Assembly (NCBI GenBank): GCA_040772545.1
Contig: JAXGXY010000002.1
Coordinates: 82,841 to 146,840, forward strand
DNA from: Christensenellales bacterium
GTDB lineage: Bacteria > Bacillota > Clostridia > Christensenellales > UBA1431
Direction of reading: 5' to 3'
DNA: 64,000 nt
This document shows positions 1 to 48,361 of this stretch, one piece after another (the first letter of the stretch is position 1; each line of letters starts with the position of its first letter). The translations under genes and the position numbers were made by a program. The notes below the pieces were generated by a model. It was not told the DNA's origin and made no database searches. It saw nothing but the letters and a program-made list of their open reading frames with translations.

Positions 1-603
1 AGAGTCATCGGGTTTTTTGCGCGCATCGAACCGGTGAAAGGCCACCGCATTTTCCTTAGCGCGTTACGGGAACTGGTTAGTGAGAGGCAGGACGTCCTGT
101 GCCTGATGGCCGGGGCCAACATGGGCATGGAGGACGACTATGCCCGCCGGGTGATGGACGACATCCGCGAACTGGGGCTGGAGCGTTTTGTATGCTGCCT
201 CGGCTTCCGCGACGACGTGATCCGCCTGATCACGCTGTGCGACATCGTGGTCCTCCCCTCCGAAAAGGAGGGGATCCCGAGGGTCCTCATGGAGGCCATG
301 GCGCTGGGCAAGCCGGTCGTCGCCACCGACGTGCCGGGGACGCGCGAGCTCGTAGAAGACGAAAAGACGGGCCTGCTCGCGCCCTACGGCGACCCGGCGG
401 CGCTTGCCTCGGCGATGGACCGCCTGCTGAGGGACGGGGAACTCGCTTCGAGGCTGCGCGAAGCGGCGCGGCTCAGGGTCGAGCGGGAATTCGACGAAAG
501 ACTGGTCATCGGGCGTCTGGAAGCGGTCTACCGCGACGCGCTCGAACGGGGCGCCAAGGCGACGCCGGGATGTGACGGAGGGACGGCATGCAAACCATAC
601 TGA
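1..603 (+). CDS. glycosyltransferase family 4 (GT-B fold), C-terminal part; 5' end outside window
   Basis: Frame-1 ORF open from the window edge to TGA 601-603. 'PSEKEGIPRVLMEAMALGKPVVATDVPGTRELVEDEKTGLL' is the typical GT4 E-x7-E donor-binding region. Confidence 0.8.
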   Translation, partial: RVIGFFARIEPVKGHRIFLSALRELVSERQDVLCLMAGANMGMEDDYARRVMDDIRELGLERFVCCLGFRDDVIRLITLCDIVVLPSEKEGIPRVLMEAMALGKPVVATDVPGTRELVEDEKTGLLAPYGDPAALASAMDRLLRDGELASRLREAARLRVEREFDERLVIGRLEAVYRDALERGAKATPGCDGGTACKPY

Positions 604-1457
604 TAACGGGGTGCAGGGGGCAGTTGGGCCTGGAGCTGACCAGGCAGCTCGGCGCCGACTGCCGCCTGATCCTTGTCGACATCGAGGAGCTGGACATCAC
701 CGATTCGGCCGCTGTATTCGACCAGGTGAAAAAGGCCGAGCCGGACGCTGTCATCAACTGCGCCGCCTACACCAACGTGGACGCGTGCGAGCACAACGTC
801 GACCTCGCCTACAGGGTCAACGCCATGGGCGCGCGCAACCTCGCGTGCGCGTCCTTCGAAGCGGGCGCGAAGATGGTGCAGATCTCCACGGATTACGTGT
901 TCAGCGGCGAGGGCGTAGGCGACGAGGACGGCTCGGTCCGGGCGTACGTGGAGAACGACAGGCCGGGGCCTATCAACGTGTACGGGAAGTCGAAGCTGGC
1001 GGGCGAGGAGATGGTACGCGCGCACAACCCGCGCCACCTTATATTCAGGACGGCCTGGCTCTTCGGCGAGGGCGCCAACTTCGTAAGGACGATGCTCAGG
1101 CTGGCAAAGGACCACGATTCGATCACGGTGGTAAACGACCAGTGGGGCAATCCGACCAGCACGAAGGAGCTGGCCAGGCTCATCATCGACGTGATGCGGC
1201 GTCCCGAGTACGGGGTCTTCCACGCCACCTGCGAGGGCGTGTGCACCTGGTACGAATTCGCCTGCGAGATCTTCCGCGTCAGGGGCCTTGAAACCAGGGT
1301 CGTGCCCTGCACGAGCGCCGAATACCCGCGTCCGGCGCCGAGGCCGCGGTATTCCATGCTGGACAACCGCGCGGCGCGTTTATGCGGCGCGTATTCGATG
1401 GCGCACTGGAAAGACGCCCTTGCCGAGTACCTAAAGGCGCAGGAGGGACCATGCTGA
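588..1457 (+). CDS. rfbD: dTDP-4-dehydrorhamnose reductase
   Basis: 289 aa. 'ILITGCRGQLG' Rossmann motif, 'STDYVF', 'YGKSKLAGE' (YxxxK). Start overlaps the upstream stop; sits beside rfbB/A/C. Confidence 0.9.
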   Translation: MQTILITGCRGQLGLELTRQLGADCRLILVDIEELDITDSAAVFDQVKKAEPDAVINCAAYTNVDACEHNVDLAYRVNAMGARNLACASFEAGAKMVQISTDYVFSGEGVGDEDGSVRAYVENDRPGPINVYGKSKLAGEEMVRAHNPRHLIFRTAWLFGEGANFVRTMLRLAKDHDSITVVNDQWGNPTSTKELARLIIDVMRRPEYGVFHATCEGVCTWYEFACEIFRVRGLETRVVPCTSAEYPRPAPRPRYSMLDNRAARLCGAYSMAHWKDALAEYLKAQEGPC

Positions 1458-2518
1458 CGTATCTGGTGACCGGCGGCGCCGGATTCATAGGCTCGAACTA
1501 TGTAAGGCACGTGCTCCGAAACACGGAGGACGTGCGGGTCATCAACGTCGACGCGCTCACGTACGCGGGCAACCTTGAAAACCTTAAGGGGCTCGAAGGC
1601 ATGCCGCGCTACGCCTTTGTCCGGGCGGACATCTGCGACGCGGACGCGCTGGGCGGGGTTTTTTGCCGCAACGACGTGGACGTCGTCGTGCATTTCGCGG
1701 CCGAAAGCCATGTGGACCGCAGCATCGAGGAACCGGACGTGTTCGTCCGCACCAACGTGCTCGGGACGCTGAACCTGCTCAACGCCGCGCTTGGCGCCTG
1801 GGAAAGCGGGGGCATGGAAGGCAAAAAGTTCGTGCACGTCTCCACCGACGAGGTGTACGGGTCGCTGGGGCCGGCGGGGTATTTCACGGAAGAGACGCCG
1901 CTTGACCCGCACAGCCCGTATTCGGCGAGCAAGGCGGCGTCCGATCTGCTGGTCAAGGCCTACGGCGACACCTACGGCCTGCCCGTGAACATCACGCGGT
2001 GCTCCAACAACTACGGCCCGTACCAGTTCCCCGAAAAGCTCATCCCCCTGATGCTCAACAACGCGCTGTGCAACAGGCCGCTGCCGGTATACGGCGAGGG
2101 CCTGAACGTGCGCGACTGGCTCTACGTCGGGGACCACTGCGCGGCCGTCGAACTCGTGGCGCGCAAAGGGAAGCCGGGCGAGGTCTACAACATCGGAGGG
2201 CACAACGAAAAGACCAACATCGAAATCGTGCGCCTTATCCTGGCGGCGCTCAAAGAGATGCTTTTACAAAGCGACCCGCGCCGGGCCCATATCACGGAGG
2301 ACCTCATCACGTTCGTAAAGGACAGGAAAGGCCACGACCTGCGCTACGCGATCGACCCTTCGAAGATCAGGCGCGAGCTGGGCTGGGAGCCGAAGACGGC
2401 GTTTGAAGAGGGCCTTCGCGGCACGATCGCCTGGTACCTCGACAACGAAGACTGGCTCAGGCACGTGACCAGCGGGGAGTACACGCGCTATTACGAGCGC
2501 ATGTACGGCGGCAGATGA
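1451..2518 (+). CDS. rfbB: dTDP-glucose 4,6-dehydratase
   Basis: ATG at 1451 preceded by AGGAGGG; earlier in-frame ATG 1382 rejected. '[14 protein letters not shown]', 'STDEVYG', '[10 protein letters not shown]' are RmlB hallmarks. Confidence 0.92.
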
Positions 2519-2538
2519 CCTTACGGTGGGAGGGGAAC

Positions 2539-3411
2539 ATGAAAGGAATCATACTCGCGGGGGGCGCGGGCACGAGGCTCTATCCCGCGACCATGGCGAT
2601 CTCCAAACAGATCCTGCCCGTTTTCGACAAGCCGATGATCTACTATCCGCTCTCGGTCCTGATGCTGGCCGGAATAAGGGAAGTGCTCATCATCTCGACG
2701 CCGCGCGACATCGGCCTGTTCAAGGACCTGTTCGGGGACGGTTCCCAGCTCGGGATGCGTTTCGCGTACGCCGTACAGCCCGAGCCGAGGGGCCTTGCGG
2801 ACGCGTTCATCATCGGCGAAGCGTTCATCGGAAGCGATCCGGTCGCGCTTATACTGGGCGACAACATCTTCTACGGGCACGGTTTGAGCGGGCTGCTGAA
2901 GAAGACGGCGAAAAACGGCGACTGCGCGACGATCTTCGGGCTTTACGCCAAGGACCCCGCCAGGTTCGGCGTCGTGGAGTTCGACGACGCGGGGAACGTG
3001 GTCTCCATCGAGGAAAAGCCCAAGCGCCCGAAATCGAACTACATCGTTCCCGGCCTGTATTTCTACCCGAACGAAGTGGTCGGGATCGCCAAGAACATAG
3101 AGCCGTCCGACCGCGGCGAGATCGAGATCACCGCCGTGAACAACGAGTTCCTGCGGCTGGGCAGGCTGCGCGTAGAGCTCCTGGGACGCGGCATGGCCTG
3201 GCTGGACACCGGCACGCACGAGAGCCTGATGGACGCGTCCAACTTCGTGGCCGCGATCCAGAACACGCAGGCCGTATACGTGGCCTGCATAGAGGAGATC
3301 GCCTACCAGCAGGGGTACATCGACGCGGAAACGCTCAGGAAAAGGGCGCTGGCCCTCGGGAAGACGGCGTACGCGGAATACATCCTCCGGGTGATCGACG
3401 AGGGGACATAG
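2539..3411 (+). CDS. rfbA: glucose-1-phosphate thymidylyltransferase
   Basis: '[36 protein letters not shown]' is the canonical RmlA N-terminus. ATG 2539 follows GGGAGGGG. Confidence 0.93.
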
Positions 3412-3423
3412 GGAGGCAGCATT

Positions 3424-4002
3424 ATGGGCAGATTCACTTTCGAAGAGACCGGAATAAACGGCGTATACATCATCGACCCGCCGGTGTTTACGGACGCGCG
3501 CGGGTTTTTCATGGAGTTCTACAACGGCCGCGACTTCACGGAAGCCGGGCTTAAAGTGACCTTCGTACAGGACAATCATTCGCTGTCCGCTAAGGGCGTT
3601 TTGAGGGGGCTCCACCTGCAGGCCGGGCATCCGCAGGGCAAGCTCGTGCGCGTGCTGAGGGGCGAGGTCTTCGACGTGGCGGTTGACGTGCGCGAGGATT
3701 CCCCGACCTTCGGCAAATGGACGGGCATGATCCTTTCCGGGGAAAACAGGCGCCAGCTCTACATCCCGCCGGGGCTGGCGCACGGGTTCCTCGTGCTCTC
3801 CGACGATGCGGAGTTCATGTACAAGTGCACGGATTTCTATTATCCCGAGGACGAATGCGGCATCATTTGGAACGACCCGGACCTGAACATTAAATGGCCG
3901 TTGCCCGAAGGCGGCGCGCCGCTGCTGTCCAAAAAAGACATGGCCTGGGGCACGTTCAAGGATTTCATCGGCCGCGTCGGCGGCCGGGGAGGCCCGGTTT
4001 GA
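3424..4002 (+). CDS. rfbC: dTDP-4-dehydrorhamnose 3,5-epimerase
   Basis: 192 aa cupin. 'FVQDNHSLSAKGVLRGLHLQ', 'KLVRVLRGEVFDVAVD', 'LYIPPGLAHGF' are RmlC motifs. Confidence 0.92.
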   Translation: MGRFTFEETGINGVYIIDPPVFTDARGFFMEFYNGRDFTEAGLKVTFVQDNHSLSAKGVLRGLHLQAGHPQGKLVRVLRGEVFDVAVDVREDSPTFGKWTGMILSGENRRQLYIPPGLAHGFLVLSDDAEFMYKCTDFYYPEDECGIIWNDPDLNIKWPLPEGGAPLLSKKDMAWGTFKDFIGRVGGRGGPV

Positions 4003-4976
4003 AGAAGGTTCTCGTGACAGGCTGCGCGGGGTTCATCGGTTCGCATGTCTGCGAGGCGCTGCTCCTGCGCGGAGTGGACGTGGCGGGCGTCGACGACCTC
4101 GACGAATACTACGACGTGGCCATGAAACACGACAATCTCGCGCAGTTGAGGGCGGCGGCGTCGGGCGGCGCGCGGTTCTACTTTGTCAAGGCCGACGTCT
4201 GCGACGAGAAGGCGGTGGCGGCGGCGTTTTCGGAACACGCGCCGCAGGCCGTGGTGCATATGGCCGCGCTGGCCGGGGTGCGATCCTCCGTGAAACATCC
4301 GGCGCGGTATGCGCGCGTAAACGTTGAGGGGACGGTCACGCTCCTCGAAGCCTGCCGGAAAAACGCCGTGCGGCGGTTCGTCTACGCGTCGTCGTCGTCG
4401 GTGTACGGCAACGCCGAAAAGGTCCCGACCGCGGAGGAAGACCGGACGGACCGGCCGCTCTCGCCCTACGCCGCGACCAAAAAGGCGGCGGAGCTCATGT
4501 GCCGCGCGTACTGCGAGCTGTGGGGGATGCGCGCGGCCTGCCTGCGTTTCTTCACCGTTTACGGGGAAAGGCAGCGGCCCGACCTTGCCATACACAAGTT
4601 CGCCCGGCTGATGCTGGCCGGCATGGAGATCCCCGTGTTCGGGCCGGGCGACACCGCCCGCGACTACACCTACATAGCGGACGCGGCGCGCGGCGTGATG
4701 TCGGCGCTGGACTGGACCGCCGCGCCGGGCGGGGCCTTTGAGGTTTTCAACCTGGGGAGCGGGCGGCCCGTCGCGCTCAACGACATGATCACCGTCCTCG
4801 AGGGCGCGCTGGGGACGGTCGCGCGCGTCGCCCGCCTTCCCCTGCAATCCACGGACCCGCGCGTCACCTTCGCCGACATCTCAAAAGCCCGGCGCGTGCT
4901 GGGGTACGAACCGTCCACGCCTTTTGAGGAAGGGATCGAAAGGTTCGTTGCCTGGGCGCTATCGCGGCGCCCGTGA
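3999..4976 (+). CDS. NAD-dependent epimerase/dehydratase, UDP-glucuronate 4-epimerase-like
   Basis: Probable TTG start at 3999, overlapping the rfbC stop (TTGA). 'VLVTGCAGFIGSH', 'YASSSSVYG', 'SPYAATKKAAE', 'LRFFTVYG' align by eye with the Cap1J/UGlcAE family. Confidence 0.75.
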   Translation: MKKVLVTGCAGFIGSHVCEALLLRGVDVAGVDDLDEYYDVAMKHDNLAQLRAAASGGARFYFVKADVCDEKAVAAAFSEHAPQAVVHMAALAGVRSSVKHPARYARVNVEGTVTLLEACRKNAVRRFVYASSSSVYGNAEKVPTAEEDRTDRPLSPYAATKKAAELMCRAYCELWGMRAACLRFFTVYGERQRPDLAIHKFARLMLAGMEIPVFGPGDTARDYTYIADAARGVMSALDWTAAPGGAFEVFNLGSGRPVALNDMITVLEGALGTVARVARLPLQSTDPRVTFADISKARRVLGYEPSTPFEEGIERFVAWALSRRP

Positions 4977-5076: not shown

Positions 5077-5170
5077 TGCCGTATTGTGAAAGTCGCACGT
5101 TTTATGATACTATAAGACGAATATTATGTTTGGTATTTCTTATTTGAACCGCCAAAACGGAGGTACTGTC

Positions 5171-8100
5171 ATGGGTACTCTGGATTTATATCTTCAACAG
5201 TTGAAAAAGGACGAGTCGTTTCGGGGGTATTTCGGCCTCGTCCGCATGCACGGGTCCAAGGTCGCATCGGAAATCCTCGAAGGCGATACCATAAAGAAAA
5301 TCACGTACGCTGAGCAGGTGACATACTGCTATGAGACGGCCAGGCGCATCAGCGAGAGGGTGCACGCCGAGGCGGGGACGCGCTTTGTGGGATTAAGGAT
5401 GGGCAACGGCCCGATGTGGCCGGTGATGTTCTGGGGAATCGTCATGGCCGGCCTGAACCCGATCCTTATCGACGTGCGCTACCAGCCGGAACAGGCCGAC
5501 CACCTGCTCCGCCAGGTGAACGCGCTCGCATTGTTCACCGACGACGCTAGCTTCGACGTCGCGGCCTGCCAGTGCATCCCGGTAAGCGAGGTGCTCGACG
5601 ACAGCGGCGGGGAGTGCGCGTACGAGCCCAGATGGGCCACGCATTACGCGCTGTGCACCTCGGGGACGACCGCCACGTCCAAGGTCTACTATTACGAGGC
5701 GAAGACGCTCTGCCAACAGGTGAGCTGCATCGGCTCGCTGACCAAGGACTTCGCCTATACCGACGCGCCCTACAAATCCCTCGCTTTTTTGCCGTTCCAT
5801 CACGTGTTCGGCCTTTTGACCGTCTTTTTCCTCTGCAACCTCTTCGGCGGGACGATCGTGTACCTCAGCGAACTCACGCCCAACGTGATCCTGAACGCCT
5901 GCAGGCGCCACAGGGTCACGCACATCTTCACGGTGCCGCTATTCTGGAACAACATCGCGCAGAACGTGATGCGCAAGGCGAAGCTGGGCGGGCCGGAGCG
6001 CGAGGCCATGCTGCAAAAGCTGATACGCGTAAGCACGATGATCCAGCGGCGCTTCCCGCGGATCGGGCGGAAAATAGTGAGCCGTTTCGTGGCCGGGAAG
6101 GTTCAGGACGCGCTATTAGGGCGCGACATACGCCTCACGATCACGGGGGGCGGGCACATCCTGCCCGAGGCGATGAAGCTCATCAACGTGCTGGGATACC
6201 AGCTAGTAAACGGCTTCGGCATGACCGAGATCGGCATCACCTCGGTGGAGACCACCACCGATTTCGACCTTCGCAACGCCGCCTCGACGGGCAAGCCGAT
6301 GCCCCGCGTGGAATACTACGTCCAGACCGACGAGGGGATCAAAACCGAAGGCGTGGGGGAACTGCTGATAAAGACCGCGTATATCCATACCGGGCGGTAT
6401 ATCGACGGCAAGGACATCGGGTGCGAGGCCGACGATAATGGGTACTTCCACACCGGCGACGTGGGCCGCATCGACAGCACGGGCCGCCTCTGGCTGGAAG
6501 GGCGCCTCAAGGAAGTCATCATCAACGAATCAGGCGAAAACGTGTACCCGGACGAACTCGAGGACGCGTTCCTCGAACTCCCCCACACCGAGCAGATGTG
6601 CGTGACCGGCATCGACACCGGCGGGACATACGAGCAGATCACCCTGGTGCTGCACCTGGGGGACGCGCTCGGCGACAACGAGCGCATCGCCGAGCTGGCG
6701 GAGGCTTTTTCGAAGGCGAACGCGCCGCTGCCCGTATACAAGAAGGTGCAAAGGGTCATCGTCGCGCACGAACCGCTTCCGCTGGCCAGCGGGATCAAGG
6801 TGGCGCGCCAGCGGCTGCGGCGCATGATCGAGCAGGGCGCCGTCGCGTTCGACGAACTGGACGTGCGTGGGGGCCGGCTCATACTGGCCGCGGGGAAGGT
6901 GCAGGCCCCCGAGGTGCTGTCCGCCGGGGTGGAGGAGGCGGACCTCAGGGCCATCAAGGACGAGATCAAGGCCATTTTTGCCGAGGTGCTCTCCCTCAGG
7001 CCCGAGGACATATCCGACACCGCCCATTTCATCAACGACCTGGGGGGCGACAGCCTGTCCAGCCTGGCCGTGTTCATCAAGGCGGAGGAAAAATACGGCC
7101 TGCTCATCAGCGACACGGACTACTACGGCTGCGAGAACGTGAACGACCTGGCCGAACTGATGTACGCAAAGCTCAGGGGGGACAGGGCCGCGCCGCAGAA
7201 GGCCGCTGAGGCGCCGCGGCAGGTCCGCCGCGTCGAGACGTTCGAACAGTCGCGCGAGCACGACGAATTCATGGTCCAGCTCAAGATCGCGGAAGTGGTG
7301 GGGAACCCGTTTTTCATCGCGCACGACTCGGTGCTCAGGGACACGTCGGTCGTGGGCGGCAGGCGCGTTTTCAACTTCGGGTCCTACAACTACCTGGGCC
7401 TGTCGGGGCATCCCGAGACGATGCGCGCCGCCATCGAAGCGATCGGGGAATACGGCACGTCGGCGAGCGGGAGCCGCCTGATCGCGGGCGAGAAGACGCT
7501 TTATAAGGAACTCGAGAAAACGATCGCCGAGTGGAAGCACACCGAGGACGCGCTGGTGCTGGTGGGCGGGCATTCCACCAACGTGACCTTCGTGGGGAAC
7601 TTCTGCAACAAGCGCGACCTGATCCTCTACGACGCGCTCTCCCACAACTCGGTCACGCAGGGCTGCCAGCTCTCCCCGGCCGAGACAAAGGCCTTCCCCC
7701 ACAACGACTACGAAGCGCTCGAAGGCATCCTCAGGGCCAACCGCGACCGGTACGAAAAGGTGCTCATCGTCGTGGAGGGCGTGTACAGCATGGACGGCGA
7801 CATCGCGCCGGTCAAAGAGTTCGTCCGGCTCAAACGCGAGTACGGCGCGTTTTTGATGGTGGACGAGGCGCACTCGAGCTGCGTGATCGGCGAGAAGGGC
7901 GGCGGGGTGGACGAGTACTTCGGGCTGGCGCCCGACGACATCGACATCAAGATGGGGACGCTGAGCAAGGGCCTGGGCACCTGCGGGGGCTATCTGGCGG
8001 GCAAGCGGTCCATGATCGACTATCTGCGCTACAACGTCCCGGGCTTCGTGTTCTCGGTGGGGATCAGCCCGCCGCTTGCCGCGGCGGCCAAGCGGGCGAT

Positions 8101-8446
8101 CGAGCTGCTGGGGGAGAACCCGCAACTGGTGAAGAACCTGCAGGCGAACATCCGCGCGTTCGTGGAGGCCGCCAAGGCGAAGGGGTTCAACACCTGCCTC
8201 GCGAAGGAATCGTCCATCATCCCGATATTCGTCGGCAGGGACGAGGACGCGGCGCTGCTCAGCCGCCTGATGCTCGAAAACGGCGTGTTCGTGCCGCCGG
8301 CCGTGTTCCCTGCGGTCCCCCGCAACCAGGCGCGGCTCAGGTTCTGCGTTACCAGCGAGCACAACGAAGGGCAGATAAAAACAGCCCTCGACACGCTCGA
8401 GAGGCTCGCGGGAGAACAGGGCATCAACCTGACAAAAACGGCCTGA
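5171..8446 (+). CDS. tri-domain fusion: AMP-dependent acyl ligase (FAAL/acyl-ACP synthetase-like) + acyl carrier protein + alpha-oxoamine synthase (8-amino-7-oxononanoate synthase / serine palmitoyltransferase family)
   Basis: ATG 5171 with GGAGG 7 nt upstream. Adenylation motifs: 'TSGTTATSK', 'GFGMTE', 'HTGDVGRIDSTGRLWLEGRLKE'. ACP motif 'DLGGDSLSSL' (DNA ~7041-7061). AOS part: 'NFGSYNYLGLSGHP', 'VEGVYSMDGD', 'VDEAHS', PLP-lysine motif 'GTLSKGLG' (~7954-7977). Confidence 0.85.
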   Translation: MGTLDLYLQQLKKDESFRGYFGLVRMHGSKVASEILEGDTIKKITYAEQVTYCYETARRISERVHAEAGTRFVGLRMGNGPMWPVMFWGIVMAGLNPILIDVRYQPEQADHLLRQVNALALFTDDASFDVAACQCIPVSEVLDDSGGECAYEPRWATHYALCTSGTTATSKVYYYEAKTLCQQVSCIGSLTKDFAYTDAPYKSLAFLPFHHVFGLLTVFFLCNLFGGTIVYLSELTPNVILNACRRHRVTHIFTVPLFWNNIAQNVMRKAKLGGPEREAMLQKLIRVSTMIQRRFPRIGRKIVSRFVAGKVQDALLGRDIRLTITGGGHILPEAMKLINVLGYQLVNGFGMTEIGITSVETTTDFDLRNAASTGKPMPRVEYYVQTDEGIKTEGVGELLIKTAYIHTGRYIDGKDIGCEADDNGYFHTGDVGRIDSTGRLWLEGRLKEVIINESGENVYPDELEDAFLELPHTEQMCVTGIDTGGTYEQITLVLHLGDALGDNERIAELAEAFSKANAPLPVYKKVQRVIVAHEPLPLASGIKVARQRLRRMIEQGAVAFDELDVRGGRLILAAGKVQAPEVLSAGVEEADLRAIKDEIKAIFAEVLSLRPEDISDTAHFINDLGGDSLSSLAVFIKAEEKYGLLISDTDYYGCENVNDLAELMYAKLRGDRAAPQKAAEAPRQVRRVETFEQSREHDEFMVQLKIAEVVGNPFFIAHDSVLRDTSVVGGRRVFNFGSYNYLGLSGHPETMRAAIEAIGEYGTSASGSRLIAGEKTLYKELEKTIAEWKHTEDALVLVGGHSTNVTFVGNFCNKRDLILYDALSHNSVTQGCQLSPAETKAFPHNDYEALEGILRANRDRYEKVLIVVEGVYSMDGDIAPVKEFVRLKREYGAFLMVDEAHSSCVIGEKGGGVDEYFGLAPDDIDIKMGTLSKGLGTCGGYLAGKRSMIDYLRYNVPGFVFSVGISPPLAAAAKRAIELLGENPQLVKNLQANIRAFVEAAKAKGFNTCLAKESSIIPIFVGRDEDAALLSRLMLENGVFVPPAVFPAVPRNQARLRFCVTSEHNEGQIKTALDTLERLAGEQGINLTKTA

Positions 8447-8478: not shown

Positions 8479-9468
8479 ATGAGCATGGGCTGTGTGATGG
8501 TGGCCGGCGGCGCCGGATACATCGGGAGCCACGCCGTGCGCGAACTGCGGCGGGCGGGACGGTGCGTCGCCGTGCTCGACAACCTGAGCACCGGGCACCG
8601 GGCCGCCGTGGAGGGCGCCGAGTTTTTAGAGGCGGACATCCGGGACACGGACGCCGTGTACGAGGCGCTAAAGGCCTATGAGGCGGAGGCGGTGATGCAT
8701 TTTGCCGCCGACAGCCGGGTGGGCGAGTCGCAGGTTGACCCCGAAAAATACTACGGCAACAACGTCTGCGGCACGTTCAGCCTGCTCTCGGCCATGCGCC
8801 GCGCGGGCGTGAACAGGCTGGTGTTTTCCTCGACAGCGGCGGTGTACGGGGACGCGAAAGGCCTCATCACGGAGGAGTACCCGAAACGGCCGGCCAACGT
8901 ATACGGCCGCACCAAGTGGATGATCGAGCAGATGCTCGCGGACTTCGACGCGGCCTACGGCCTGAAGGCCGTCGCGCTGCGCTACTTCAACGCCGCCGGC
9001 GCGGACCCGGAGGGCGGCATCGGCGAGGACCACAGGCCCGAGACGCACCTGATCCCGCTGGTGCTGCGGGCCGCGGTCAACAGGGAGCCGCTGACGGTGT
9101 TCGGGGACGACTACCCGACGCGCGACGGCACCTGCGTGCGCGACTACATCCACGTCAGCGACCTCGCCTCGGCGCACCTATTAGCGCTCGAAGCGCTGGA
9201 GGGCGGGGAGGGGAGCCGCGCGTACAACCTCGGCAACGGGAAAGGGTTTTCCGTGCTGGAGGTCATACGGGCGGCAGAGCGCGTGACCGGGAGGAAGGTG
9301 CCCTTCGCCGTCGGCGCGCGCAGGCCCGGCGACCCGCCGAGCCTGGTGGCCGACAGCTCGGGCATCGTGCGCGAACTGGGGTACGCCCCGCGTCACGCCG
9401 CCCTCGAGGACATCATCTTAACGGCCTGGCGGTTCCATCAAAGCCACGAGAACGGGTACGGGGACTAA
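8479..9468 (+). CDS. galE: UDP-glucose 4-epimerase
   Basis: C-terminal 330 codons of the 645-aa ORF. 'VMVAGGAGYIGSH', 'SSTAAVYG', 'YGRTKWMIE', 'LRYFNAAGA', 'DGTCVRDYIHVSDLA'. Start is 8479, 8485 or 8497 (ambiguous). Confidence 0.9.
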   Translation: MSMGCVMVAGGAGYIGSHAVRELRRAGRCVAVLDNLSTGHRAAVEGAEFLEADIRDTDAVYEALKAYEAEAVMHFAADSRVGESQVDPEKYYGNNVCGTFSLLSAMRRAGVNRLVFSSTAAVYGDAKGLITEEYPKRPANVYGRTKWMIEQMLADFDAAYGLKAVALRYFNAAGADPEGGIGEDHRPETHLIPLVLRAAVNREPLTVFGDDYPTRDGTCVRDYIHVSDLASAHLLALEALEGGEGSRAYNLGNGKGFSVLEVIRAAERVTGRKVPFAVGARRPGDPPSLVADSSGIVRELGYAPRHAALEDIILTAWRFHQSHENGYGD

Positions 9469-9575: not shown

Positions 9576-9605
9576 TTGCTAAAGGCCGGCGCATGCATAT
9601 ATAAT
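9576..9605 (+). promoter_or_regulatory. sigma-A-type promoter candidate for the DegV gene
   Basis: TTGCTA (9576-9581), 17-18 nt spacer, then ATATAAT (9599-9605). Confidence 0.45.
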
Positions 9606-9649
9606 GTATATACAAAAAAATGCCGGATGCGCTCGCAAGGAGGGGGAAC

Positions 9650-10519
9650 ATGGATTACGTCATCATGACGGATTCGGATTCGGAACTGGACTACGCCTAT
9701 GCGGCCGGGCACGGGGTGCTGATGCTGTTGATGCCGTATACGCATATGGGGCAGGAGTACGCCTACCGCCCTTCCTACGATTTCGACACGGAGAAGTTCT
9801 ACGGGGAACTGCGGCGCGGGGAGGTGCCGACGACGGCGTGCCCGAACCCGCACGACTTCCTCACGCTGTGGGAGCCGCACCTTAAGCAGGGAAAGGACAT
9901 CGCGTACCTGGCCCTGTCCTCGGCGCTGAGCAATACGTACGAGAACGCGCTGATGGCCAGGGAGGAAGCGCTTGAAAGCTATCCGGGGCGCACGATCCGG
10001 GTGGTGGACACGCTGCGCATCTCGATGGCCATGGGGTTGCTGGTGATGATCGCGGCCTCTATGCGGGAGCAGGGGAAATCGCTGGCCGAAGTGTGCGACT
10101 GGGTCGAAAAAAACCGGCAGCGCGCGCGGGCGTGGTTCATCGTGGACGACCTGCATTACCTGAAACGCGGGGGCAGGCTCTCCGGGTCGGCCGCGTTTTT
10201 CGGGACGATACTGGACGTCAAGCCGGTCCTGACCATCGACGACGCGGGCAGGCTCGTCCCGGTTGAAAAGATCAAGGGGCGCAAGAAGGCCATACGGTAC
10301 ATGCTCGAACAGATGGACAAGGAGGCGGCCGGGCCCGGGGAAGGCTTCGTGGCCATATGCCAGGCGGACTGTTACGGCGACGCGAAATCCGTCGAGGAGA
10401 AGATAGGGCAGCGCGGCTACGCCGACACCGTCGTCAACCCGGTGGGCCCGGTCGTGGGGTCGCACGTGGGGCCGGGGACGCTGGGGATATGTTATATGAA
10501 AAAGGGAGACAGTGTTTAG
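9650..10519 (+). CDS. DegV family fatty-acid-binding protein
   Basis: ATG 9650 after GGAGGGGG. 'MDYVIMTDSDSEL', 'VVDTLRISMAMG', 'VDDLHYLKRGGRLSG' are DegV hallmarks. Confidence 0.85.
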   Translation: MDYVIMTDSDSELDYAYAAGHGVLMLLMPYTHMGQEYAYRPSYDFDTEKFYGELRRGEVPTTACPNPHDFLTLWEPHLKQGKDIAYLALSSALSNTYENALMAREEALESYPGRTIRVVDTLRISMAMGLLVMIAASMREQGKSLAEVCDWVEKNRQRARAWFIVDDLHYLKRGGRLSGSAAFFGTILDVKPVLTIDDAGRLVPVEKIKGRKKAIRYMLEQMDKEAAGPGEGFVAICQADCYGDAKSVEEKIGQRGYADTVVNPVGPVVGSHVGPGTLGICYMKKGDSV

Positions 10520-22160: not shown

Positions 22161-22237
22161 GGGGTTATAGCTCAGCTGGTCAGAGCGCTACGTTGACATC
22201 GTAGAGGTCGTTGGTTCGAGCCCAATTAACCCCACCA
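22161..22237 (+). tRNA. tRNA-Val (anticodon GAC)
   Basis: Acceptor GGGGTTA/TAACCCC. D arm GCTCAGCTGGTCAGAGC. Anticodon loop TTGACAT. T arm GTTGGTTCGAGCCCAAT. Encoded CCA. Confidence 0.93.
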
Positions 22238-22245
22238 GCGCATGG

Positions 22246-22282
22246 AATCAGGGTTTTCGCCTATTTGGCGGGCCCTGATTTT
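22246..22282 (+). terminator. terminator after tRNA-Val
   Basis: AATCAGGG...CCCTGATTTTCGTTT. Confidence 0.6.
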
Positions 22283-22497
22283 CGTTTGGGCTGCCCGATT
22301 CGGGCGCGCAATAGGCGGAGAACGTTTCGTATGCCGCCACGCCCGGAGAAAACGAGGTTCGATGCTTTTTGCCCCGGCTCCCGATGCCTGCGCGTTGGTT
22401 TTTCAAAGCATATGGAGAACCGTTGAAACAGTACCTTTGATTATTTTTGGAATATGCTGATTAGGCGACCGTAAAAGTTAGAAAGGGAGTCTCAAAG

Positions 22498-22809
22498 ATG
22501 AAAGACGGCAAATGCGTAGATTACTGCAAAGTGAATGATATATGCAACGACGAACATTGTCACCATGATTGCAAAAACGAAATTCTTTGTTGTGAGGCAA
22601 AGGTATGCAGATGCGGCGCAGAGCTTTTTTGCACGGTTGCTGAAAGGTTGTCGTGCGAAATAAAGATGGCGAGGAGTTCGCGGGAGCTGGCGTGCTTTAT
22701 CGAATTGAGCAACAGCTTTTTGATCGCCAGTGCGCAGAAAGAAAATGCGATCAGCAGCGTTTTATGTTGTCTCGGCGTGAATGAAGAAAAGATGCTTAAG
22801 TGTCCATAA
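22498..22809 (+). CDS. hypothetical cysteine-rich small protein
   Basis: 103-aa ORF in a visibly AT-richer patch. RBS AAAGGGAG. The N-terminal ~45 aa carry ~11 Cys ('CVDYCKVNDICNDEHCHHDCKNEILCCEAKVCRCGAELFC'). A hairpin terminator follows. Confidence 0.6.
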   Translation: MKDGKCVDYCKVNDICNDEHCHHDCKNEILCCEAKVCRCGAELFCTVAERLSCEIKMARSSRELACFIELSNSFLIASAQKENAISSVLCCLGVNEEKMLKCP

Positions 22810-22826
22810 GCGTTATTATTTAATAA

Positions 22827-22848
22827 GAAGGGAGCAAATGCTCCCTTC
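22827..22848 (+). terminator. hairpin terminator of the Cys-rich gene
   Basis: GAAGGGAGCaaatGCTCCCTTC. Confidence 0.6.
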
Positions 22849-22850
22849 TA

Positions 22851-22979
22851 GGCCGTCGACAAACCCTTCGGGATTTGTCGACGGTTTTCTGTGTGGAAAA
22901 AATGACTTTTTTTCCGCCAATCTGACGCACATGTCGTCAGATTGGATTGAAGGCGGGGGATTGCATCCCCACACCCCCT
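22851..22979 (+). repeat. family-1 modular four-hairpin element, copy 1
   Basis: GTCGACAAAcccttcgggaTTTGTCGAC; GGAAAAAAtgacTTTTTTTCC; CAATCTGACGcacatgtCGTCAGATTG; then GGATTGAAGG and GGGGGattgcatCCCCacaCCCCC. Near-identical to 36136-36266. Confidence 0.85.
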
Positions 22980-23265
22980 GCCAGTCCGGGGAGCATATCC
23001 TCCTTCTTTCCTGTTTTTCTTCGGAGGACCCTTGCCCGTCAGCCCGCCCATAATGTCCGCGCCTATGCACAAGGTGCCGTGTACGGTTTGCCGGGCAGGC
23101 CATATTCGATCGGTTTTCCTGCAGCATTTTGGTTGGCCGCACAAAAAGGTTCTTCTTTAACTCGCAGAACGCTTCATACTACCGGACGACTGGCTCCGGA
23201 TAATCGGCTGGAACCAGAGCCTGTCCGCGTTTCTTTTTCTTTATGCGATATTGTTTTGCGGGTGT

Positions 23266-23294
23266 TGACAAAGGACAAAGTAATTGGTAAGATA
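23266..23294 (+). promoter_or_regulatory. rRNA operon promoter candidate
   Basis: TTGACA (23266-23271), 17 nt spacer, TAAGAT (23289-23294), ~180 nt upstream of 16S. Confidence 0.5.
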
Positions 23295-23474
23295 ATAAAG
23301 CCGCCTGAGAGGCGGGTTTCGCCTTAAAGAGGCGGGAAGGCAGCAGCTTGAAAACTATACAGTACACCTAAGCAAGGTAAGAGACAGACAAAGAAGAAGC
23401 CAGAGAGACTTTGAGTTAAAGAGAACCCCGTCCGGTGTTTTGAGAGAAGAAGCGCGGGGCGGGACAAAGGATTT

Positions 23475-25016
<1,542 letters not shown>

Positions 25017-25207
25017 GGGAGTAAGGATTCGAGAGAATCGTACTTCATAGGTCGATAGTGTTTCTGGCAAGCGACATCGGCGAAGGGGTACTGTATGGTT
25101 TTGAGGCCGCTGGGCGTCTTAATGTAATTTAACTATGTTAAGATGGCATTCCTGCCTCAACGGCAGGGAGCGGGCTTCACTCTTGGACGTAAGCACGTCC
25201 CCGGGGT

Positions 25208-25327
25208 ATGGGGGCGGAGGCTCCCATGTTCAGCGACATGTGCGGCGAATCGGTGAAGAAACGGCGCCGGGAGCGGCGTTTCAACCGACCGGGAACCAGA
25301 CAAATCCCGAAGGGATTTGCTCTGGCC
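25208..25327 (-). repeat. family-1 element, degenerate copy in the 16S-23S spacer (inverted orientation)
   Basis: Starts GGGGTATGGGGG. CAGCGACATGTGCGGCG retains the conserved ACATGT loop. Also GAAACGGCGCcgggagCGGCGTTTC, AACCGACC, and CAGACAAATCCCgaaGGGATTTGCTCTG. Confidence 0.65.
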
Positions 25328-25335
25328 CAGCAGAC

Positions 25336-25390
25336 GGGGGTGTAGCTCAGCTGGGAGAGCACCTGCCTTGCACGCAGGGGGTCAGCGGTT
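25336..25390 (+). pseudogene. tRNA-Ala (UGC), 5' two-thirds only; T-arm and 3' acceptor strand not found
   Basis: GGGGGTGTAGCTCAGCTGGGAGAGCACCTGCCTTGCACGCAGGGGGTCAGCGGTTC is canonical up to T-loop 'TTC'. It then runs into TCGTCGGAGCAAACTACGCTCC (family-2 repeat). No ...CCGCTCACCCCCACCA follows. Confidence 0.6.
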
Positions 25391-25520
25391 CTCGTCGGAG
25401 CAAACTACGCTCCACTCCGAACCCCCTAAGCGCTTTGCGCGGCGGGGATTCGTCGCAACGCTCCGTTGCTCCTCCTTATCCCCACAAAGCTTGCGCTTTG
25501 CGGGGAGGTACTCGGGAAGG
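25391..25520 (+). repeat. family-2 spacer repeat, copy a
   Basis: CGTCGGAGCAAACTACGCTCC..CCCCTAAGCGCTTTGCGCGGCGGGGATTCGTCGC..CGCTCCGTTGCTCCTCC..CACAAAGCTTGCGCTTTGCGGGG. Related to 25605-25715 and, inverted, to 29115-29300. Confidence 0.7.
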
Positions 25521-25527
25521 GCTGTGT

Positions 25528-25604
<77 letters not shown>

Positions 25605-25715
25605 CCGCGTCGGAGCAAACTACGCTCTGCTCCCGCGTCGGAGCGGACTGCGCTTCGCTCGCTTACGGGCAAAGCCCGAAAGCTCGCGCGCTCCGTCGCT
25701 CCTCCTTTAACGTGA
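25605..25715 (+). repeat. family-2 spacer repeat, copy b (first module duplicated)
   Basis: CCGCGTCGGAGCAAACTACGCTCTGCTC followed by CCGCGTCGGAGCGGACTGCGCTTCGCTC, then ...CGCTCCGTCGCTCCTCCTTTAAC. Confidence 0.65.
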
Positions 25716-25764
25716 GAGGCGCTGGGGCCTCACCTTCTGGAAGGCAGAACGTTCCAGGGGGTAT

Positions 25765-25889
25765 GGGGGATCGCAATCCCCCATGTCAATCCAATCTGGC
25801 GACATGCGCGTCAGATTGGGGAAGAAATGTTGCGAAGTAACATTTCAACCGACCAGGAATCCGCATAGGGCCGAAGGCCCGAATGCGGC
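25765..25889 (-). repeat. family-1 element, copy in the 16S-23S spacer (inverted orientation)
   Basis: GGGGGATCGCAATCCCCC, TCAATCC, CAATCTGGCGACATGCGCGTCAGATTG, GAAATGTTGCGAAGTAACATTTC, AACCGACC. This is the reverse complement of the module order in copies 1-3. Confidence 0.75.
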
Positions 25890-26041
25890 AAGGAAAGCCG
25901 GAGGCTTTCCGGAAGAAGAGCACCTTGAAAACCGCATAACGAAGTAAAGCGAGAGCAAGAAAAGGGTAAGATGCGCTTTTAGAAGGAAAGTGCAGCATAC
26001 TGAAAGATTCGCTTGGTAAAACAAGAGTCAAGGGAAGAGAC

Positions 26042-28963
<2,922 letters not shown>

Positions 28964-29114
28964 ACGATTTTCAGGCGCTGCGTTAAGGCGCAAACCTTAC
29001 GTTTCTCGCACAAACGGCGTTATGCGGTTTTGAGGGTGTTTGGTCCTACGGCAATTAATATGCCGGGATGACGCTCGAATACGAGCAGGCACCATTACCC
29101 GCGCCAAAATGGAG

Positions 29115-29300
29115 GCGCAGCGGAGCGTAGTTTGCTACGACGCAGTAGCCCTACCTTCAAAATCCCCGCTAAAACCCTCCCCGGGAAAACCATGCAAAGC
29201 GTAGCTTTGCATGGAAGAGGAGGAGCAACGGAGCGGGGCGAAGAATCCCCGATCGCGAAGCGTAAAGGGGATTCAGAGCAAAGCGAAGTTTGCTACGACG
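29115..29300 (-). repeat. family-2 repeat material in the 23S-5S spacer (inverted)
   Basis: GGAGCGTAGTTTGCTACGACG; CCATGCAAAGCGTAGCTTTGCATGG; GGAGGAGCAACGGAGCG; GGGGCGAAGAATCCCCGATCGCGAAGCGTAAAGGGG. These are reverse complements of the copy-a modules. Confidence 0.65.
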
Positions 29301-29305
29301 AAGTT

Positions 29306-29421
<116 letters not shown>

Positions 29422-29430
29422 TTCCAATAT

Positions 29431-29505
29431 TCCTCAGTAGCTCAGCGGTAGAGCATCCGGCTGTTAACCGGAGGGCCGTAGGTTCAAATCCTACCTGAGG
29501 AGCCA
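29431..29505 (+). tRNA. tRNA-Asn (anticodon GUU)
   Basis: Acceptor TCCTCAG/CTGAGGA. Anticodon loop CTGTTAA. T arm GTAGGTTCAAATCCTAC. Encoded CCA. Confidence 0.92.
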
Positions 29506-39467: not shown

Positions 39468-39832
39468 TCGAAATATGGGGGTTTACGATGCGCCGCAAAA
39501 GGCCGGAAAACGGGCCGCCGCATTTTTGGAGAGATTCTCGGGGGAAACCGTGGCTTTTTTTGAAACCCGTTGTTTGCCACCGGCCGCATATGCTATATAT
39601 AAAATGCACCTAAGGCCGGTCCGGCTCTTTTCCCGGAGCCAAAGACCCTTCGCGCGAGGTCAGGCGGCGCCGGTTTTTCATATAGAGACACGATCGGCAA
39701 CGGCATGCGCCGTTCACGTGGTTTCTTATTTATCAAAACGGAACGGGACGGCGAACGCCGGCCTTTTGCATCTCGTTAGGCACACGGAGGCGGAATACGG
39801 CATGCACGTCCGATTGCGGGGAGGGAAACGGT

Positions 39833-40189: not shown

Positions 40190-40204
40190 GAAGGGGGCCC
40201 GGGC

Positions 40205-40708: not shown

Positions 40709-40794
40709 CGCCGCCGCCGGCTCGCGTGAAGAAGGACCGGCTTCGTTTCGCGGCGGGCGGCCGGTCCTTTTGCGGCGGCGTTTTGGTTTATGCA

Positions 40795-42776: not shown

Positions 42777-42843
42777 CGTTTCACCGCCCGCTAAGCTTTG
42801 TATATTTGTATTTCGCGGGGGCGGCGGATATGGCGGGTACGAT

Positions 42844-42980: not shown

Positions 42981-43078
42981 AGGGGAAGTTACCGTTTGCC
43001 ATGTTGCCCGGGGTGAAAGGCTGACGATTACCGGTCGGACACATTTGAATAAACCTTCCGTTGCATAAAAACGCACAC

Positions 43079-46403: not shown

Positions 46404-46434
46404 ATCGAATCTCCCAAATAACGGGTTCTCTGTT

Positions 46435-47060: not shown

Positions 47061-47074
47061 AGCCGCGCTTTGGT

Positions 47075-48342: not shown

Positions 48343-48361
48343 GGGGTAACCTCCTTATCAA

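What the first reader, a model, noticed from the sequence alone, without database searches (positions are those of the whole stretch)
5171..8446. Single 1,091-aa polypeptide fusing acyl-adenylate ligase, ACP and a serine-palmitoyltransferase-like alpha-oxoamine synthase, embedded in a sugar-nucleotide locus
The domain order is seen directly in the translation. The AMP-binding enzyme shows 'TSGTTATSK', 'GFGMTE', 'HTGDVGRID..GRLKE'. The carrier domain shows 'DLGGDSLSSL'. The PLP-dependent AOS shows 'NYLGLSGHP', 'SMDGD', 'GTLSKGLG'. From the Caulobacter sphingolipid literature, as I recall it, bacterial SPT can use an acyl-ACP made by a dedicated ACP and acyl-ACP synthetase encoded as three separate genes. 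Here all three functions are fused. This predicts a self-contained machine that activates a fatty acid, tethers it, and condenses it with an amino acid to give a long-chain alpha-amino ketone (sphingoid-base-like or sulfonolipid-like). The host is a Firmicute, where such lipids are little known. The gene sits between rmlDBAC/UDP-GlcA-epimerase and galE, which hints at a glycosylated aminolipid or a lipid-anchored polysaccharide.
Basis: partly seen in the sequence, partly recalled or inferred. Interest (0 to 1): 0.75.

Follow-up and report, generated by a model that had tools for sequence, protein, structure and literature searches.

The report
Fused fatty-acid loader, carrier, amino-ketone synthase
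One 1,091-residue protein in a spore-forming anaerobe joins an acid-activating enzyme, a carrier domain and a PLP-dependent condensing enzyme, and its relatives suggest that many Clostridia make sphingosine-like amino lipids by an undescribed route.

Summary
The ORF at 5171-8446 (+) encodes AMP-binding, PP-binding and alpha-oxoamine synthase (AOS) domains, and every catalytic motif is intact and conserved in 60 relatives.

It is not a one-off. The 120 best database hits, mostly Clostridia, all have the same three domains. In 38 of 83 loci a short-chain reductase lies directly beside the gene on the same strand. All 20 reductases tested score best against the 3-ketodihydrosphingosine reductase model KdsR.

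The AOS domain reaches no curated SPT, BioF, Kbl or CqsA threshold. Outside its own family, its nearest relatives are AOS domains fused to the C-terminus of fully reducing type I PKSs. BioF is the most distant reference.

The likely mechanism is that the enzyme adenylates a (probably long-chain) fatty acid, loads it on Ser628 and condenses it with an amino acid at Lys933. The product would be a long-chain alpha-amino ketone, reduced elsewhere to a sphingoid-like base.

The acid, the amino acid and the product are all inferred. The window lineage has no adjacent reductase.

The rml/galE neighbours are a lineage-specific insertion, so the glycolipid idea is weak. The architecture was listed in 2013, but I found no functional study.

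The parts
5171..8446 (+). Gene for the 1,091-aa tridomain protein (ANL adenylating domain, carrier domain, alpha-oxoamine synthase)
   Evidence: Uninterrupted translation. Pfam finds the three domains. The 120 best database hits share the architecture.
5159..5163 (+). Shine-Dalgarno GGAGG, 7 nt before the ATG at 5171
   Evidence: Read directly from the sequence.
5171..6895 (+). Adenylate-forming (ANL, acyl-CoA-synthetase-like) domain, aa 1-575. Motifs: T163SGTT, G348-x-G-x-TE, D430, R445/K447, K543.
   Evidence: Pfam PF00501. Invariant motifs in 41 and 60 sequences. AF2 model pLDDT 88.7. Foldseek top hits are FadD13, MenE and MatB. There is no FDxS-type Asp of amino-acid-activating A domains; the motif is LPFHHVFG.
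6959..7159 (+). Carrier (PP-binding) domain, aa 597-663. The phosphopantetheine attachment site Ser628 (nt 7052-7054) lies in GGDSL.
   Evidence: Pfam PF00550. DSL is nearly invariant in the family.
7364..8398 (+). PLP-dependent alpha-oxoamine synthase domain, aa 732-1076. Residues: His825, Ser873, Asp898, His901, Lys933 (nt 7967-7969), Arg1057.
   Evidence: Pfam PF00155. Alignment to S. multivorum SPT, whose roles for His138, Ser185, Asp210, His213 and Lys244 come from PMC10196870. Conserved in the family.
8479..9468 (+). galE (UDP-glucose 4-epimerase), 32 nt downstream and probably co-transcribed. A neighbour in this lineage only.
   Evidence: TIGR01179 scores 419 bits against a cutoff of 262. 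Also present after the gene in L001, L002 and L085, but absent in L081 and L082.
1..4976 (+). GT4-rmlD-rmlB-rmlA-rmlC-epimerase cassette upstream, separated from the gene by a 190-bp gap. A lineage-specific insertion between a PHP gene and the tridomain gene.
   Evidence: Pfam. L085 has PHP-GT4-rmlDBAC-epimerase-gene-galE, whereas L081 and L082 have PHP directly before the gene.
9620..10519 (+). DegV/FakB-like fatty-acid-binding protein with its own promoter-like site at 9576-9605. Syntenic with the gene in this clade; a functional link is not shown.
   Evidence: TIGR00762 scores 257 bits. Promoter scan gives 10 of 12 matches. Synteny in L002 and L081.

Best explanation
The gene encodes a self-contained, carrier-protein-dependent alpha-oxoamine synthase. 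It belongs to a large, uncharacterised family that is mainly clostridial.

Proposed mechanism:
1. The N-terminal ANL domain adenylates a free carboxylic acid, most probably a long-chain fatty acid.
2. It transfers the acyl group to the phosphopantetheine on Ser628 of the in-cis carrier domain.
3. The C-terminal PLP enzyme (Schiff base at Lys933) binds an amino acid. L-serine is the leading candidate, with alanine or glycine as alternatives.
4. It performs a decarboxylative Claisen condensation with the acyl-S-carrier and releases a long-chain alpha-amino ketone of the 3-ketosphinganine type.
5. In about half of the family a co-transcribed KdsR-like reductase would turn this into a 2-amino-3-hydroxy long-chain base. 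In the window's lineage that reductase is not adjacent and must lie elsewhere, if it exists.

Shown: the domain order, intact catalytic residues, family conservation, reductase linkage and phylogenetic position.
Inferred: the identity of the acid, the identity of the amino acid, the product and its fate.
For: - Three domains with all catalytic motifs are present and conserved in 60 and 41 relatives.
- The A domain has acyl-CoA-synthetase-type motifs, not amino-acid-type ones. Its best sequence and structure matches are fatty-acyl-CoA synthetase FadD13, MenE and MatB.
- The AOS domain keeps the residues that do the chemistry in S. multivorum SPT.
- The only recurrent neighbour is a classical SDR, found in 38 of 83 loci on the same strand with gaps of 9-100 nt in most of them (up to 857 nt in one). 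In the cultured Clostridium thermarum it forms a clean two-gene unit with the tridomain gene.
- All 20 SDRs tested have the 3-ketodihydrosphingosine reductase model NF049977 as their best hit, with a best E of 2e-104.
- SDR-linked members lie on both sides of the family tree, and the window clade is nested among them.
- Outside the family (58-70% identity) the next relatives of the AOS domain (43-51%) are C-terminal AOS domains of KS-AT-DH-ER-KR-ACP fully reducing PKSs and FAAL-type A-ACP-AOS proteins. These enzymes present long saturated acyl-S-ACP.
- Canonical SPT, Kbl and BioF are only 30-38% identical. In an NJ tree SPT is the nearest reference and BioF the farthest.
- Published precedents for the same three-function logic are AasR/AcpR/Spt in Rhodobacteria (PMC9386255) and SgaA PKS + SgaB AOS with SPT activity + SgaC KDS-reductase homologue in Pseudomonas (PMC12134224).
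Against: - There are no biochemical data for any member.
- The AOS domain reaches no curated SPT cutoff: 301 against 640, 299 against 500 and 235 against 670 bits.
- The amino-acid specificity cannot be read from the sequence.
- The A domain's structural neighbours include aryl-acid, malonate and o-succinylbenzoate ligases as well as fatty-acid ligases, so chain length is not established.
- The A domain is poorly conserved in the family (median 34% identity against 68% for AOS). Some members lack it altogether. The acyl donor may therefore differ between members.
- The SDRs are below the KdsR cutoff of 400.
- The window and its whole clade lack the adjacent SDR. The only SDR in the 64-kb window is generic.
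- No ceramide-synthase-like gene is linked.
- The NJ tree has no bootstrap support and only four reference sequences.
Confidence: 0.6

Rival explanations
1. The chemistry is the same but the product is not a membrane lipid. The A domain loads a short, branched, aromatic or otherwise unusual acid, and the amino ketone is a diffusible small molecule. It could be an alpha-hydroxyketone-type signal as with CqsA/LqsA, a pyrazine precursor or another secondary metabolite.
For: Foldseek neighbours of the A domain include aryl-acid, malonyl and feruloyl ligases. The carrier motif GGDSL is of the NRPS PCP type (own knowledge). The domain sits in a clade otherwise found in PKS assembly lines. The CqsA pathway also ends with a reductase (own knowledge). 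The A domain evolves fast.
Against: The CqsA model scores lowest among AOS models, 162 against a cutoff of 428, and 80 bits in the PDB search. No sensor kinase or further PKS/NRPS gene is conserved nearby. The gene sits among housekeeping genes and is present once per genome across a whole class. The partner SDR matches KdsR best, not autoinducer or polyketide reductases. The PKS relatives are fully reducing, that is fatty-acid-like.
Confidence: 0.2
2. In the window's lineage the amino lipid is built into a glycoconjugate, such as a rhamnose- or galactose-bearing aminolipid or a lipid anchor of a cell-wall polysaccharide. The flanking GT4, rmlDBAC, epimerase and galE genes would carry this out.
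For: The order rml genes, tridomain gene, galE is kept in genomes whose protein is 98% and 73% identical (L085, L002), and the 79% relative L001 keeps galE after the gene; its contig is too short upstream to show rml genes. galE starts 32 nt after the gene and is probably co-transcribed. Sugar genes lie on both sides.
Against: The 60%-identical relative and others have PHP-gene-DegV with no sugar genes. None of the other ~80 loci shows sugar genes as recurrent neighbours. A 190-bp AT-rich gap with a T-run separates the rml cassette from the gene. rml and galE are ordinary cell-wall polysaccharide genes in Firmicutes.
Confidence: 0.1
3. It is a biotin enzyme. The A domain would activate pimelate onto the carrier, and the BioF-like domain would make 8-amino-7-oxononanoate.
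For: The best NCBIfam score for the AOS part is bioF TIGR00858, at 354 bits. Sources annotate relatives as '8-amino-7-oxononanoate synthase/acyl carrier protein'. A natural BioW-BioF fusion exists (PMC9544090).
Against: The score is below the bioF cutoff of 426. E. coli BioF is the most distant reference, at 30% identity and 162 bits, and it is the outgroup in the tree. No BioB gene lies in any of 85 loci. The conserved partner is a ketoreductase, which has no role in biotin synthesis. BioW is not an ANL enzyme (own knowledge).
Confidence: 0.03

Closest known systems
AasR (acyl-ACP synthetase) + AcpR (dedicated ACP) + Spt of Caulobacter and other Rhodobacteria (PMC9386255)
   Same: The three functions are the same and act in the same order. 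An ANL enzyme loads a fatty acid on a dedicated carrier protein, and a PLP-dependent AOS condenses acyl-S-carrier with an amino acid.
   Different: Here all three are one polypeptide and the host is a Gram-positive spore former. The AOS domain is only about 35% identical to a canonical bacterial SPT and reaches no SPT model cutoff. The carrier has a PCP-type GGDSL motif. Orthology to AasR or AcpR was not tested because no sequences were available.
PfSgaABC of Pseudomonas fluorescens MYb115: iterative type I PKS + AOS with SPT activity + KDS-reductase homologue, making sphinganines (PMC12134224)
   Same: A carrier-bound acyl chain is handed to a non-canonical AOS, followed by a BT_0972/KdsR-like reductase. 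The window AOS domain's nearest outside relatives are AOS domains fused to fully reducing PKSs. The family partner is KdsR-like.
   Different: The acyl chain is taken up and activated by an adenylating domain rather than built by a PKS. All parts except the reductase are fused. Direct similarity to SgaB was not measured.
A-CP-AOS proteins listed by Milano et al. 2013 (Microscilla A1ZVW4, Blastopirellula A3ZWL3, Synechococcus PCC 7002 B1XHP8; PMC3870968)
   Same: The domain order is identical, and the AOS is of the Aminotran_1_2 / SPT-like group. Function was unknown there too.
   Different: Those come from Bacteroidota, Planctomycetes and Cyanobacteria. A second A-ACP-AOS type seen here (P0153) has a FAAL/DIP2-type A domain and is only about 50% identical in the AOS domain. 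The clostridial family is a separate, tight clade at 58-70% identity.
Assembly-line AOS domains of natural-product pathways (RedL/PigH in prodiginines, SxtA in saxitoxin; own knowledge and PMC3870968)
   Same: The AOS is fused behind a carrier domain and uses acyl-S-carrier, not acyl-CoA.
   Different: Those sit in multi-gene secondary-metabolite clusters. This gene stands alone or with one reductase, among housekeeping genes.

Membership tests
Alpha-oxoamine synthase family (fold-type I PLP, CoA/ACP-dependent acyltransferases) | PF00155 match over the whole domain and strong similarity to solved AOS structures | tested here: met
   PF00155 E 4e-49 over aa 732-1076. ThAOS scores 233 bits, S. 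multivorum SPT 224 and Kbl about 203.
Alpha-oxoamine synthase family (fold-type I PLP, CoA/ACP-dependent acyltransferases) | Catalytic set: Schiff-base Lys, PLP-stacking His, Asp to N1, His to O3', carboxylate Arg | tested here: met
   Lys933, His825, Asp898, His901 and Arg1057 align with Lys244, His138, Asp210, His213 and the LIR-F Arg of SmSPT. They are conserved in 60 relatives.
Serine palmitoyltransferase (NCBIfam equivalogs NF047600, NF047599, NF047603) | Score at or above the curated cutoff | tested here: not met
   301 against 640, 299 against 500 and 235 against 670 bits.
Serine palmitoyltransferase (NCBIfam equivalogs NF047600, NF047599, NF047603) | Uses L-serine and a C16-type acyl thioester to give 3-ketodihydrosphingosine | not testable with these tools
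   Only indirect evidence is available: the KdsR-like partner, reducing-PKS relatives, and SPT as the nearest reference in an unsupported NJ tree.
BioF (8-amino-7-oxononanoate synthase, TIGR00858) | Score at or above the cutoff, and a biotin-gene context | tested here: not met
   354 against 426 bits. 30% identity to E. coli BioF, the lowest of four references. No BioB in 85 loci.
Kbl (glycine C-acetyltransferase, NF005394/TIGR01822) | Score at or above the cutoff | tested here: not met
   307 against 460 and 263 against 493 bits. No tdh neighbour was seen.
CqsA/LqsA autoinducer synthase (NF005526) | Score at or above the cutoff | tested here: not met
   162 against 428 bits. CqsA structures score about 80 bits.
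ANL adenylate-forming superfamily | PF00501 match, core motifs A3/A5/A7/A8/A10 and the two-subdomain fold | tested here: met
   PF00501 E 3e-40. T163SGTT, GxGxTE, D430, R445/K447 and K543 are invariant. The AF2 model has pLDDT 88.7 and Foldseek probability 1.00 to FadD13 and MenE.
ANL adenylate-forming superfamily | Long-chain fatty-acid specificity | tested here: inconclusive
   The best hits are fatty-acyl-CoA synthetases, but only over the C-terminal half. Structural neighbours span many substrate classes.
Phosphopantetheine carrier proteins (PF00550) | Pfam match and a conserved Ser in the DSL motif | tested here: met
   PF00550 E 3e-12. Ser628 lies in GGDSL, and D-S-L is at least 90% conserved. 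Actual modification by a PPTase was not testable.
KdsR-type 3-ketodihydrosphingosine reductase as pathway partner (NF049977) | A KdsR-like SDR encoded next to the gene | tested here: not met
   For the window, none is adjacent and the only SDR in 64 kb is generic. For the family, 38 of 83 loci have one, and KdsR is the best model for 20 of 20, though below the cutoff (up to about 320 against 400 bits).

The most novel reading that the evidence does not exclude
Many Clostridia would make sphingoid long-chain bases, including gut and digester Christensenellales, Oscillospiraceae and Clostridium species. These are Gram-positive anaerobes that are not counted among sphingolipid producers. They would use a third, independent route: a single polypeptide that scavenges a free fatty acid, tethers it to itself and condenses it with serine or alanine, followed by a KdsR-like reductase. 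That would add the Bacillota to the sphingolipid-producing bacteria. It would also make SPT-gene surveys of microbiomes incomplete.
Probability: 0.4. Interest if true: 0.75.

Novelty: new variant of a known kind. Interest (0 to 1): 0.6.

Why it matters
Bacterial sphingolipids are currently assigned to Bacteroidota and some Proteobacteria. Surveys use the stand-alone SPT gene as the marker.

This family is annotated only as 'aminotransferase class I/II' or 'BioF/ACP', and it is common in Clostridia from guts, rumens and digesters. If it makes long-chain bases, an abundant group of host-associated bacteria becomes a possible source of sphingoid signalling lipids.

The enzyme is also compact. It turns a free acid and an amino acid into an amino ketone without CoA, which is attractive for biocatalysis.

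The hypothesis can be tested directly, because cultured carriers exist with a clean two-gene unit (Clostridium thermarum).

Tried and rejected
- Literature: nine full-text searches found no functional study of the clostridial A-ACP-AOS. Absence from this library is not proof.
- ±10-kb neighbourhood clustering of 80 loci: apart from the SDR, nothing recurs across clades. One apparent cluster (c2) was an antisense ORF artefact of the high-GC gene itself.
- A KdsR-like SDR in the window: only a generic SDR at 29648-30430 (-) was found.
- galE as a disguised ketoreductase: rejected, because it clearly passes the GalE equivalog cutoff.
- A-domain structure prediction and fold search: the ANL fold is confident but gives no substrate discrimination.
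- Reading amino-acid specificity from SmSPT active-site residues: most contacts to the serine side chain are water-mediated or main-chain, so they are not diagnostic.
- DegV as a functional partner: it has its own promoter-like site and belongs to a conserved housekeeping block (DegV, beta-CASP RNase, HAD, then dnaX in L081). I treat it as synteny only.
- The second Aminotran_1_2 gene at 33386-34579: it is not an AOS.
- Source names of the nearest outside relatives: uninformative.


Full report
**1. The observation**

The ORF at 5171-8446 on the + strand is real and uninterrupted, at 1,091 aa. Its ATG has a GGAGG 7 nt upstream. A 98%-identical database protein has the same length.

Pfam finds AMP-binding (aa 39-406), PP-binding (597-663) and Aminotran_1_2 (732-1076).

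The neighbours are as described:
- a partial GT4, then rmlD, rmlB, rmlA and rmlC;
- an NAD-dependent epimerase/dehydratase whose substrate I could not assign;
- a 190-bp AT-rich gap, then the gene;
- 32 nt later, a genuine GalE (TIGR01179, 419 bits against a cutoff of 262).

DegV, a beta-CASP RNase and a HAD hydrolase follow. A CotJA domain and the taxonomy of the relatives fit a spore-forming member of the Clostridia, close to Christensenellales. The window has 61% G+C.

**2. Catalytic competence**

I aligned 60 full-length relatives and 41 database proteins. The conserved features are:
- A domain: the ANL core motifs T163SGTT, GxGxTE at 348, D430, R445/K447 and the A10 lysine K543.
- Carrier domain: the DSL motif with Ser628.
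- AOS domain: SYNY, GTSASGSR, H825-N-S, S873-MDGD, D898-x-A-H901, GTLSK933 and L-R1057.

Alignment to S. multivorum SPT was read against the residue roles published for that enzyme (PMC10196870). His825 is then the PLP-stacking and carboxylate-anchoring His138. Asp898 and His901 correspond to Asp210 and His213, and Lys933 to the Schiff-base Lys244.

The A domain has the LPxxHxxG motif of acyl-CoA synthetases rather than the FDxS Asp of amino-acid-activating domains. An AlphaFold model of aa 1-590 is confident, at pLDDT 88.7. It matches FadD13, MenE, MatB and aryl-acid ligases. That confirms the fold but not the substrate.

**3. A large family, not a one-off**

A search of 5.8 billion proteins gave 1,072 hits at E <= 1e-10 among the candidates scored. 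The best 120 all carry the same three Pfam domains and are about 1,070-1,120 aa long.

They come from Christensenellales, Oscillospiraceae, Lachnospiraceae, Candidatus Limiplasma, Clostridium thermarum, Clostridium rhizosphaerae, Caloramator and an oral Clostridiales taxon. A few MAGs are labelled Treponema, Bacteroidales or Deltaproteobacteria.

Within the family, median identity to the window protein is 68% for the AOS domain, 44% for the carrier and 34% for the A domain. Some Oscillospiraceae carry ACP-AOS proteins without the A domain, and some relatives are stand-alone AOS proteins. Both forms are still about 63-67% identical in the AOS part.

**4. Gene neighbourhood**

I clustered ORFs from 80 loci (±10 kb) and found one recurrent neighbour, a classical SDR of 270-300 aa.
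- A tblastn recount finds it directly beside the gene in 38 of 83 loci, nearly always on the same strand, with gaps of 9-100 nt in most (the largest is 857 nt).
- In the cultured Clostridium thermarum the SDR and the tridomain gene form a two-gene unit between unrelated convergent genes.
- All 20 SDRs tested have the 3-ketodihydrosphingosine reductase model NF049977 (KdsR) as their best NCBIfam match. The best E is 2e-104, and the one member whose score was reported reaches about 320 bits, below the cutoff of 400.
- SDR-linked members occur on both sides of a midpoint-rooted family tree. The window's clade (window, L001, L002, L003-L011, L064) is nested among them and lacks the adjacent SDR.
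- The only SDR in the 64-kb window, at 29648-30430 (-), is generic.

**5. The sugar genes**

The 98%-identical contig reads PHP, GT4, rmlD, rmlB, rmlA, rmlC, epimerase, gene, galE. The 73% relative reads rmlD, rmlB, rmlA, gene, galE, DegV, beta-CASP, HAD.

The 60% relative reads PHP, gene, DegV, beta-CASP, HAD, dnaX, ybaB, recR. Another relative also has PHP directly before the gene.

So the ancestral setting is PHP, gene, DegV within a housekeeping block. The GT4/rml/epimerase cassette and galE were inserted on either side in one sub-lineage. No other locus shows sugar genes as recurrent neighbours. The glycolipid idea is therefore possible only for this lineage, and it is weakly supported.

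**6. Which kind of AOS**

No curated equivalog cutoff is reached:

| Model | Score (bits) | Cutoff (bits) |
|---|---|---|
| bioF | 354 | 426 |
| Kbl | 307 | 460 |
| SPT (three models) | 301 / 299 / 235 | 640 / 500 / 670 |
| ALAS | 251 | 339 |
| CqsA | 162 | 428 |

Pairwise identity is 35% to S. multivorum SPT (226 bits) and 38% to Thermus AOS (214 bits). It is 33% to E. coli Kbl (206 bits) and 30% to E. coli BioF (162 bits). The references are closer to one another than to this domain.

An exhaustive HMMER search of 1.84 billion cluster representatives shows a sharp step. About 22 representatives at 58-70% identity form the family. The next hits are at 43-51%.

Those next hits are mostly C-terminal domains of proteins of 1,400-2,860 aa. 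Pfam shows that these are fully reducing type I PKSs with the order KS-AT-DH-ER-KR-ACP-AOS. Also present are a second A-ACP-AOS type with a FAAL/DIP2-like A domain, ACP-AOS proteins and some stand-alone forms.

In an NJ tree rooted on BioF, Kbl and Thermus AOS branch first, then SPT. A large clade of carrier-linked AOS domains follows, in which the window family is one tight branch. The tree has no support values and only four references, so I take it as an indication only.

In addition, no BioB gene lies in any of 85 loci.

**7. Mechanism and comparison with known systems**

The evidence fits a minimal assembly line of three steps:
1. activate a free acid;
2. tether it to the enzyme's own carrier;
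3. condense it with an amino acid by decarboxylative Claisen chemistry.

A KdsR-like reduction follows in many members.

Two lines point to a long saturated acyl chain and a sphingoid-type product. The relatives are fused to fatty-acid-synthase-like PKSs, and the partner reductase resembles enzymes acting on 3-ketosphinganine.

The logic has two published precedents. One is the separate AasR, AcpR and Spt of Caulobacter and other Rhodobacteria (PMC9386255). The other is Pseudomonas SgaA (iterative PKS), SgaB (an AOS with SPT activity, shown with labelled serine) and SgaC (a KDS-reductase homologue) (PMC12134224).

The A-CP-AOS architecture itself was listed in 2013 for Microscilla, Blastopirellula and Synechococcus, with function unknown (PMC3870968). 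Nine literature searches found no study of the clostridial family.

**8. What remains open**

The acid, the amino acid, the product and its fate are inferred, not shown. The window lineage lacks the adjacent reductase. No N-acyltransferase is linked, apart from a GNAT next to three related ACP-AOS loci.

The fast-evolving and sometimes absent A domain suggests that acyl donors may differ among members. A diffusible small-molecule product is the main rival (about 0.2). The biotin reading is unlikely (about 0.03).

**9. Verdict**

The core interpretation is supported by comparative evidence, and the glycoconjugate hint is not.

The gene is a new variant of a known kind: a carrier-dependent, SPT-like amino-ketone synthase, fused here and found in Gram-positives. 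The architecture is not new. The specific and testable implication is that Clostridia may be unrecognised producers of sphingoid bases. Interest is 0.6.

Noticed in passing
L069-L073, L075, L078, L079 (e.g. L072:10001-11488): Oscillospiraceae relatives are ACP-AOS didomain proteins with no A domain, yet are about 65% identical in the AOS part. Several keep the KdsR-like SDR directly upstream. Stand-alone forms of 413-419 aa also exist (the P0136 cluster). The family is therefore modular, and the acyl loader can be encoded elsewhere.
   Followed up: partly
L072:11500-14600, L075:1636-4626, L079 (downstream of ACP-AOS): Three related loci carry an ArsR regulator, a GNAT acetyltransferase (192 aa), a haemolysin-III/PAQR membrane protein (212 aa) and a secreted 415-aa protein with no Pfam match, all right after the ACP-AOS gene. 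GNAT and PAQR proteins are plausible N-acylation and ceramidase-type partners, but there are only three loci.
   Followed up: partly
L003, L004, L006, L008, L009, L011, L064 (gene directly upstream of the tridomain gene): In the sister clade of the window's lineage, a 170-260-aa 'putative amidase' (PF12671, Amidase_6) sits directly upstream on the same strand in place of the SDR.
   Followed up: no
window 22161-29502: An rRNA operon: 16S at 23475-25013, 23S at 26042-28964, 5S at 29306-29422, with tRNAs at 22161, 25528 and 29431. The 16S could identify the organism, but no rRNA database was available.
   Followed up: no
window 29648-30430 (-): A generic SDR lies just after the rRNA operon. Its third-position G+C is unusually low (0.49 against about 0.85 for neighbouring genes), which suggests foreign origin. 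It is not KdsR-like.
   Followed up: partly
window 39776-43076 (-) and 46397-50249: A large serine recombinase (Resolvase + Recombinase domains, 639 aa) lies next to a 453-aa ORF with no Pfam match. Nearby ORFs have low GC3, which suggests an integrated mobile element. A 538-aa ORF ends in a CotJA spore-coat domain.
   Followed up: no
window 9620-10519 (+) and 32241-33122 (-): The window holds two DegV/FakB-like fatty-acid-binding proteins. The first is syntenic with the tridomain gene in this clade (also in L002 and L081). Whether DegV could hand free fatty acid to the A domain is untested.
   Followed up: partly
P0135 (1,741 aa): One representative matches the AOS domain in two separate stretches within a 1,741-aa protein. 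It may be a tandem or extended fusion of the family architecture.
   Followed up: no
window 5930-6120 (aa ~256-314 of the A domain): The A domain carries a four-helix insertion of about 45 residues just before the ITGGG strand, relative to FadD13. It resembles the linker of long-chain acyl-CoA synthetases, from memory; this was not tested.
   Followed up: no
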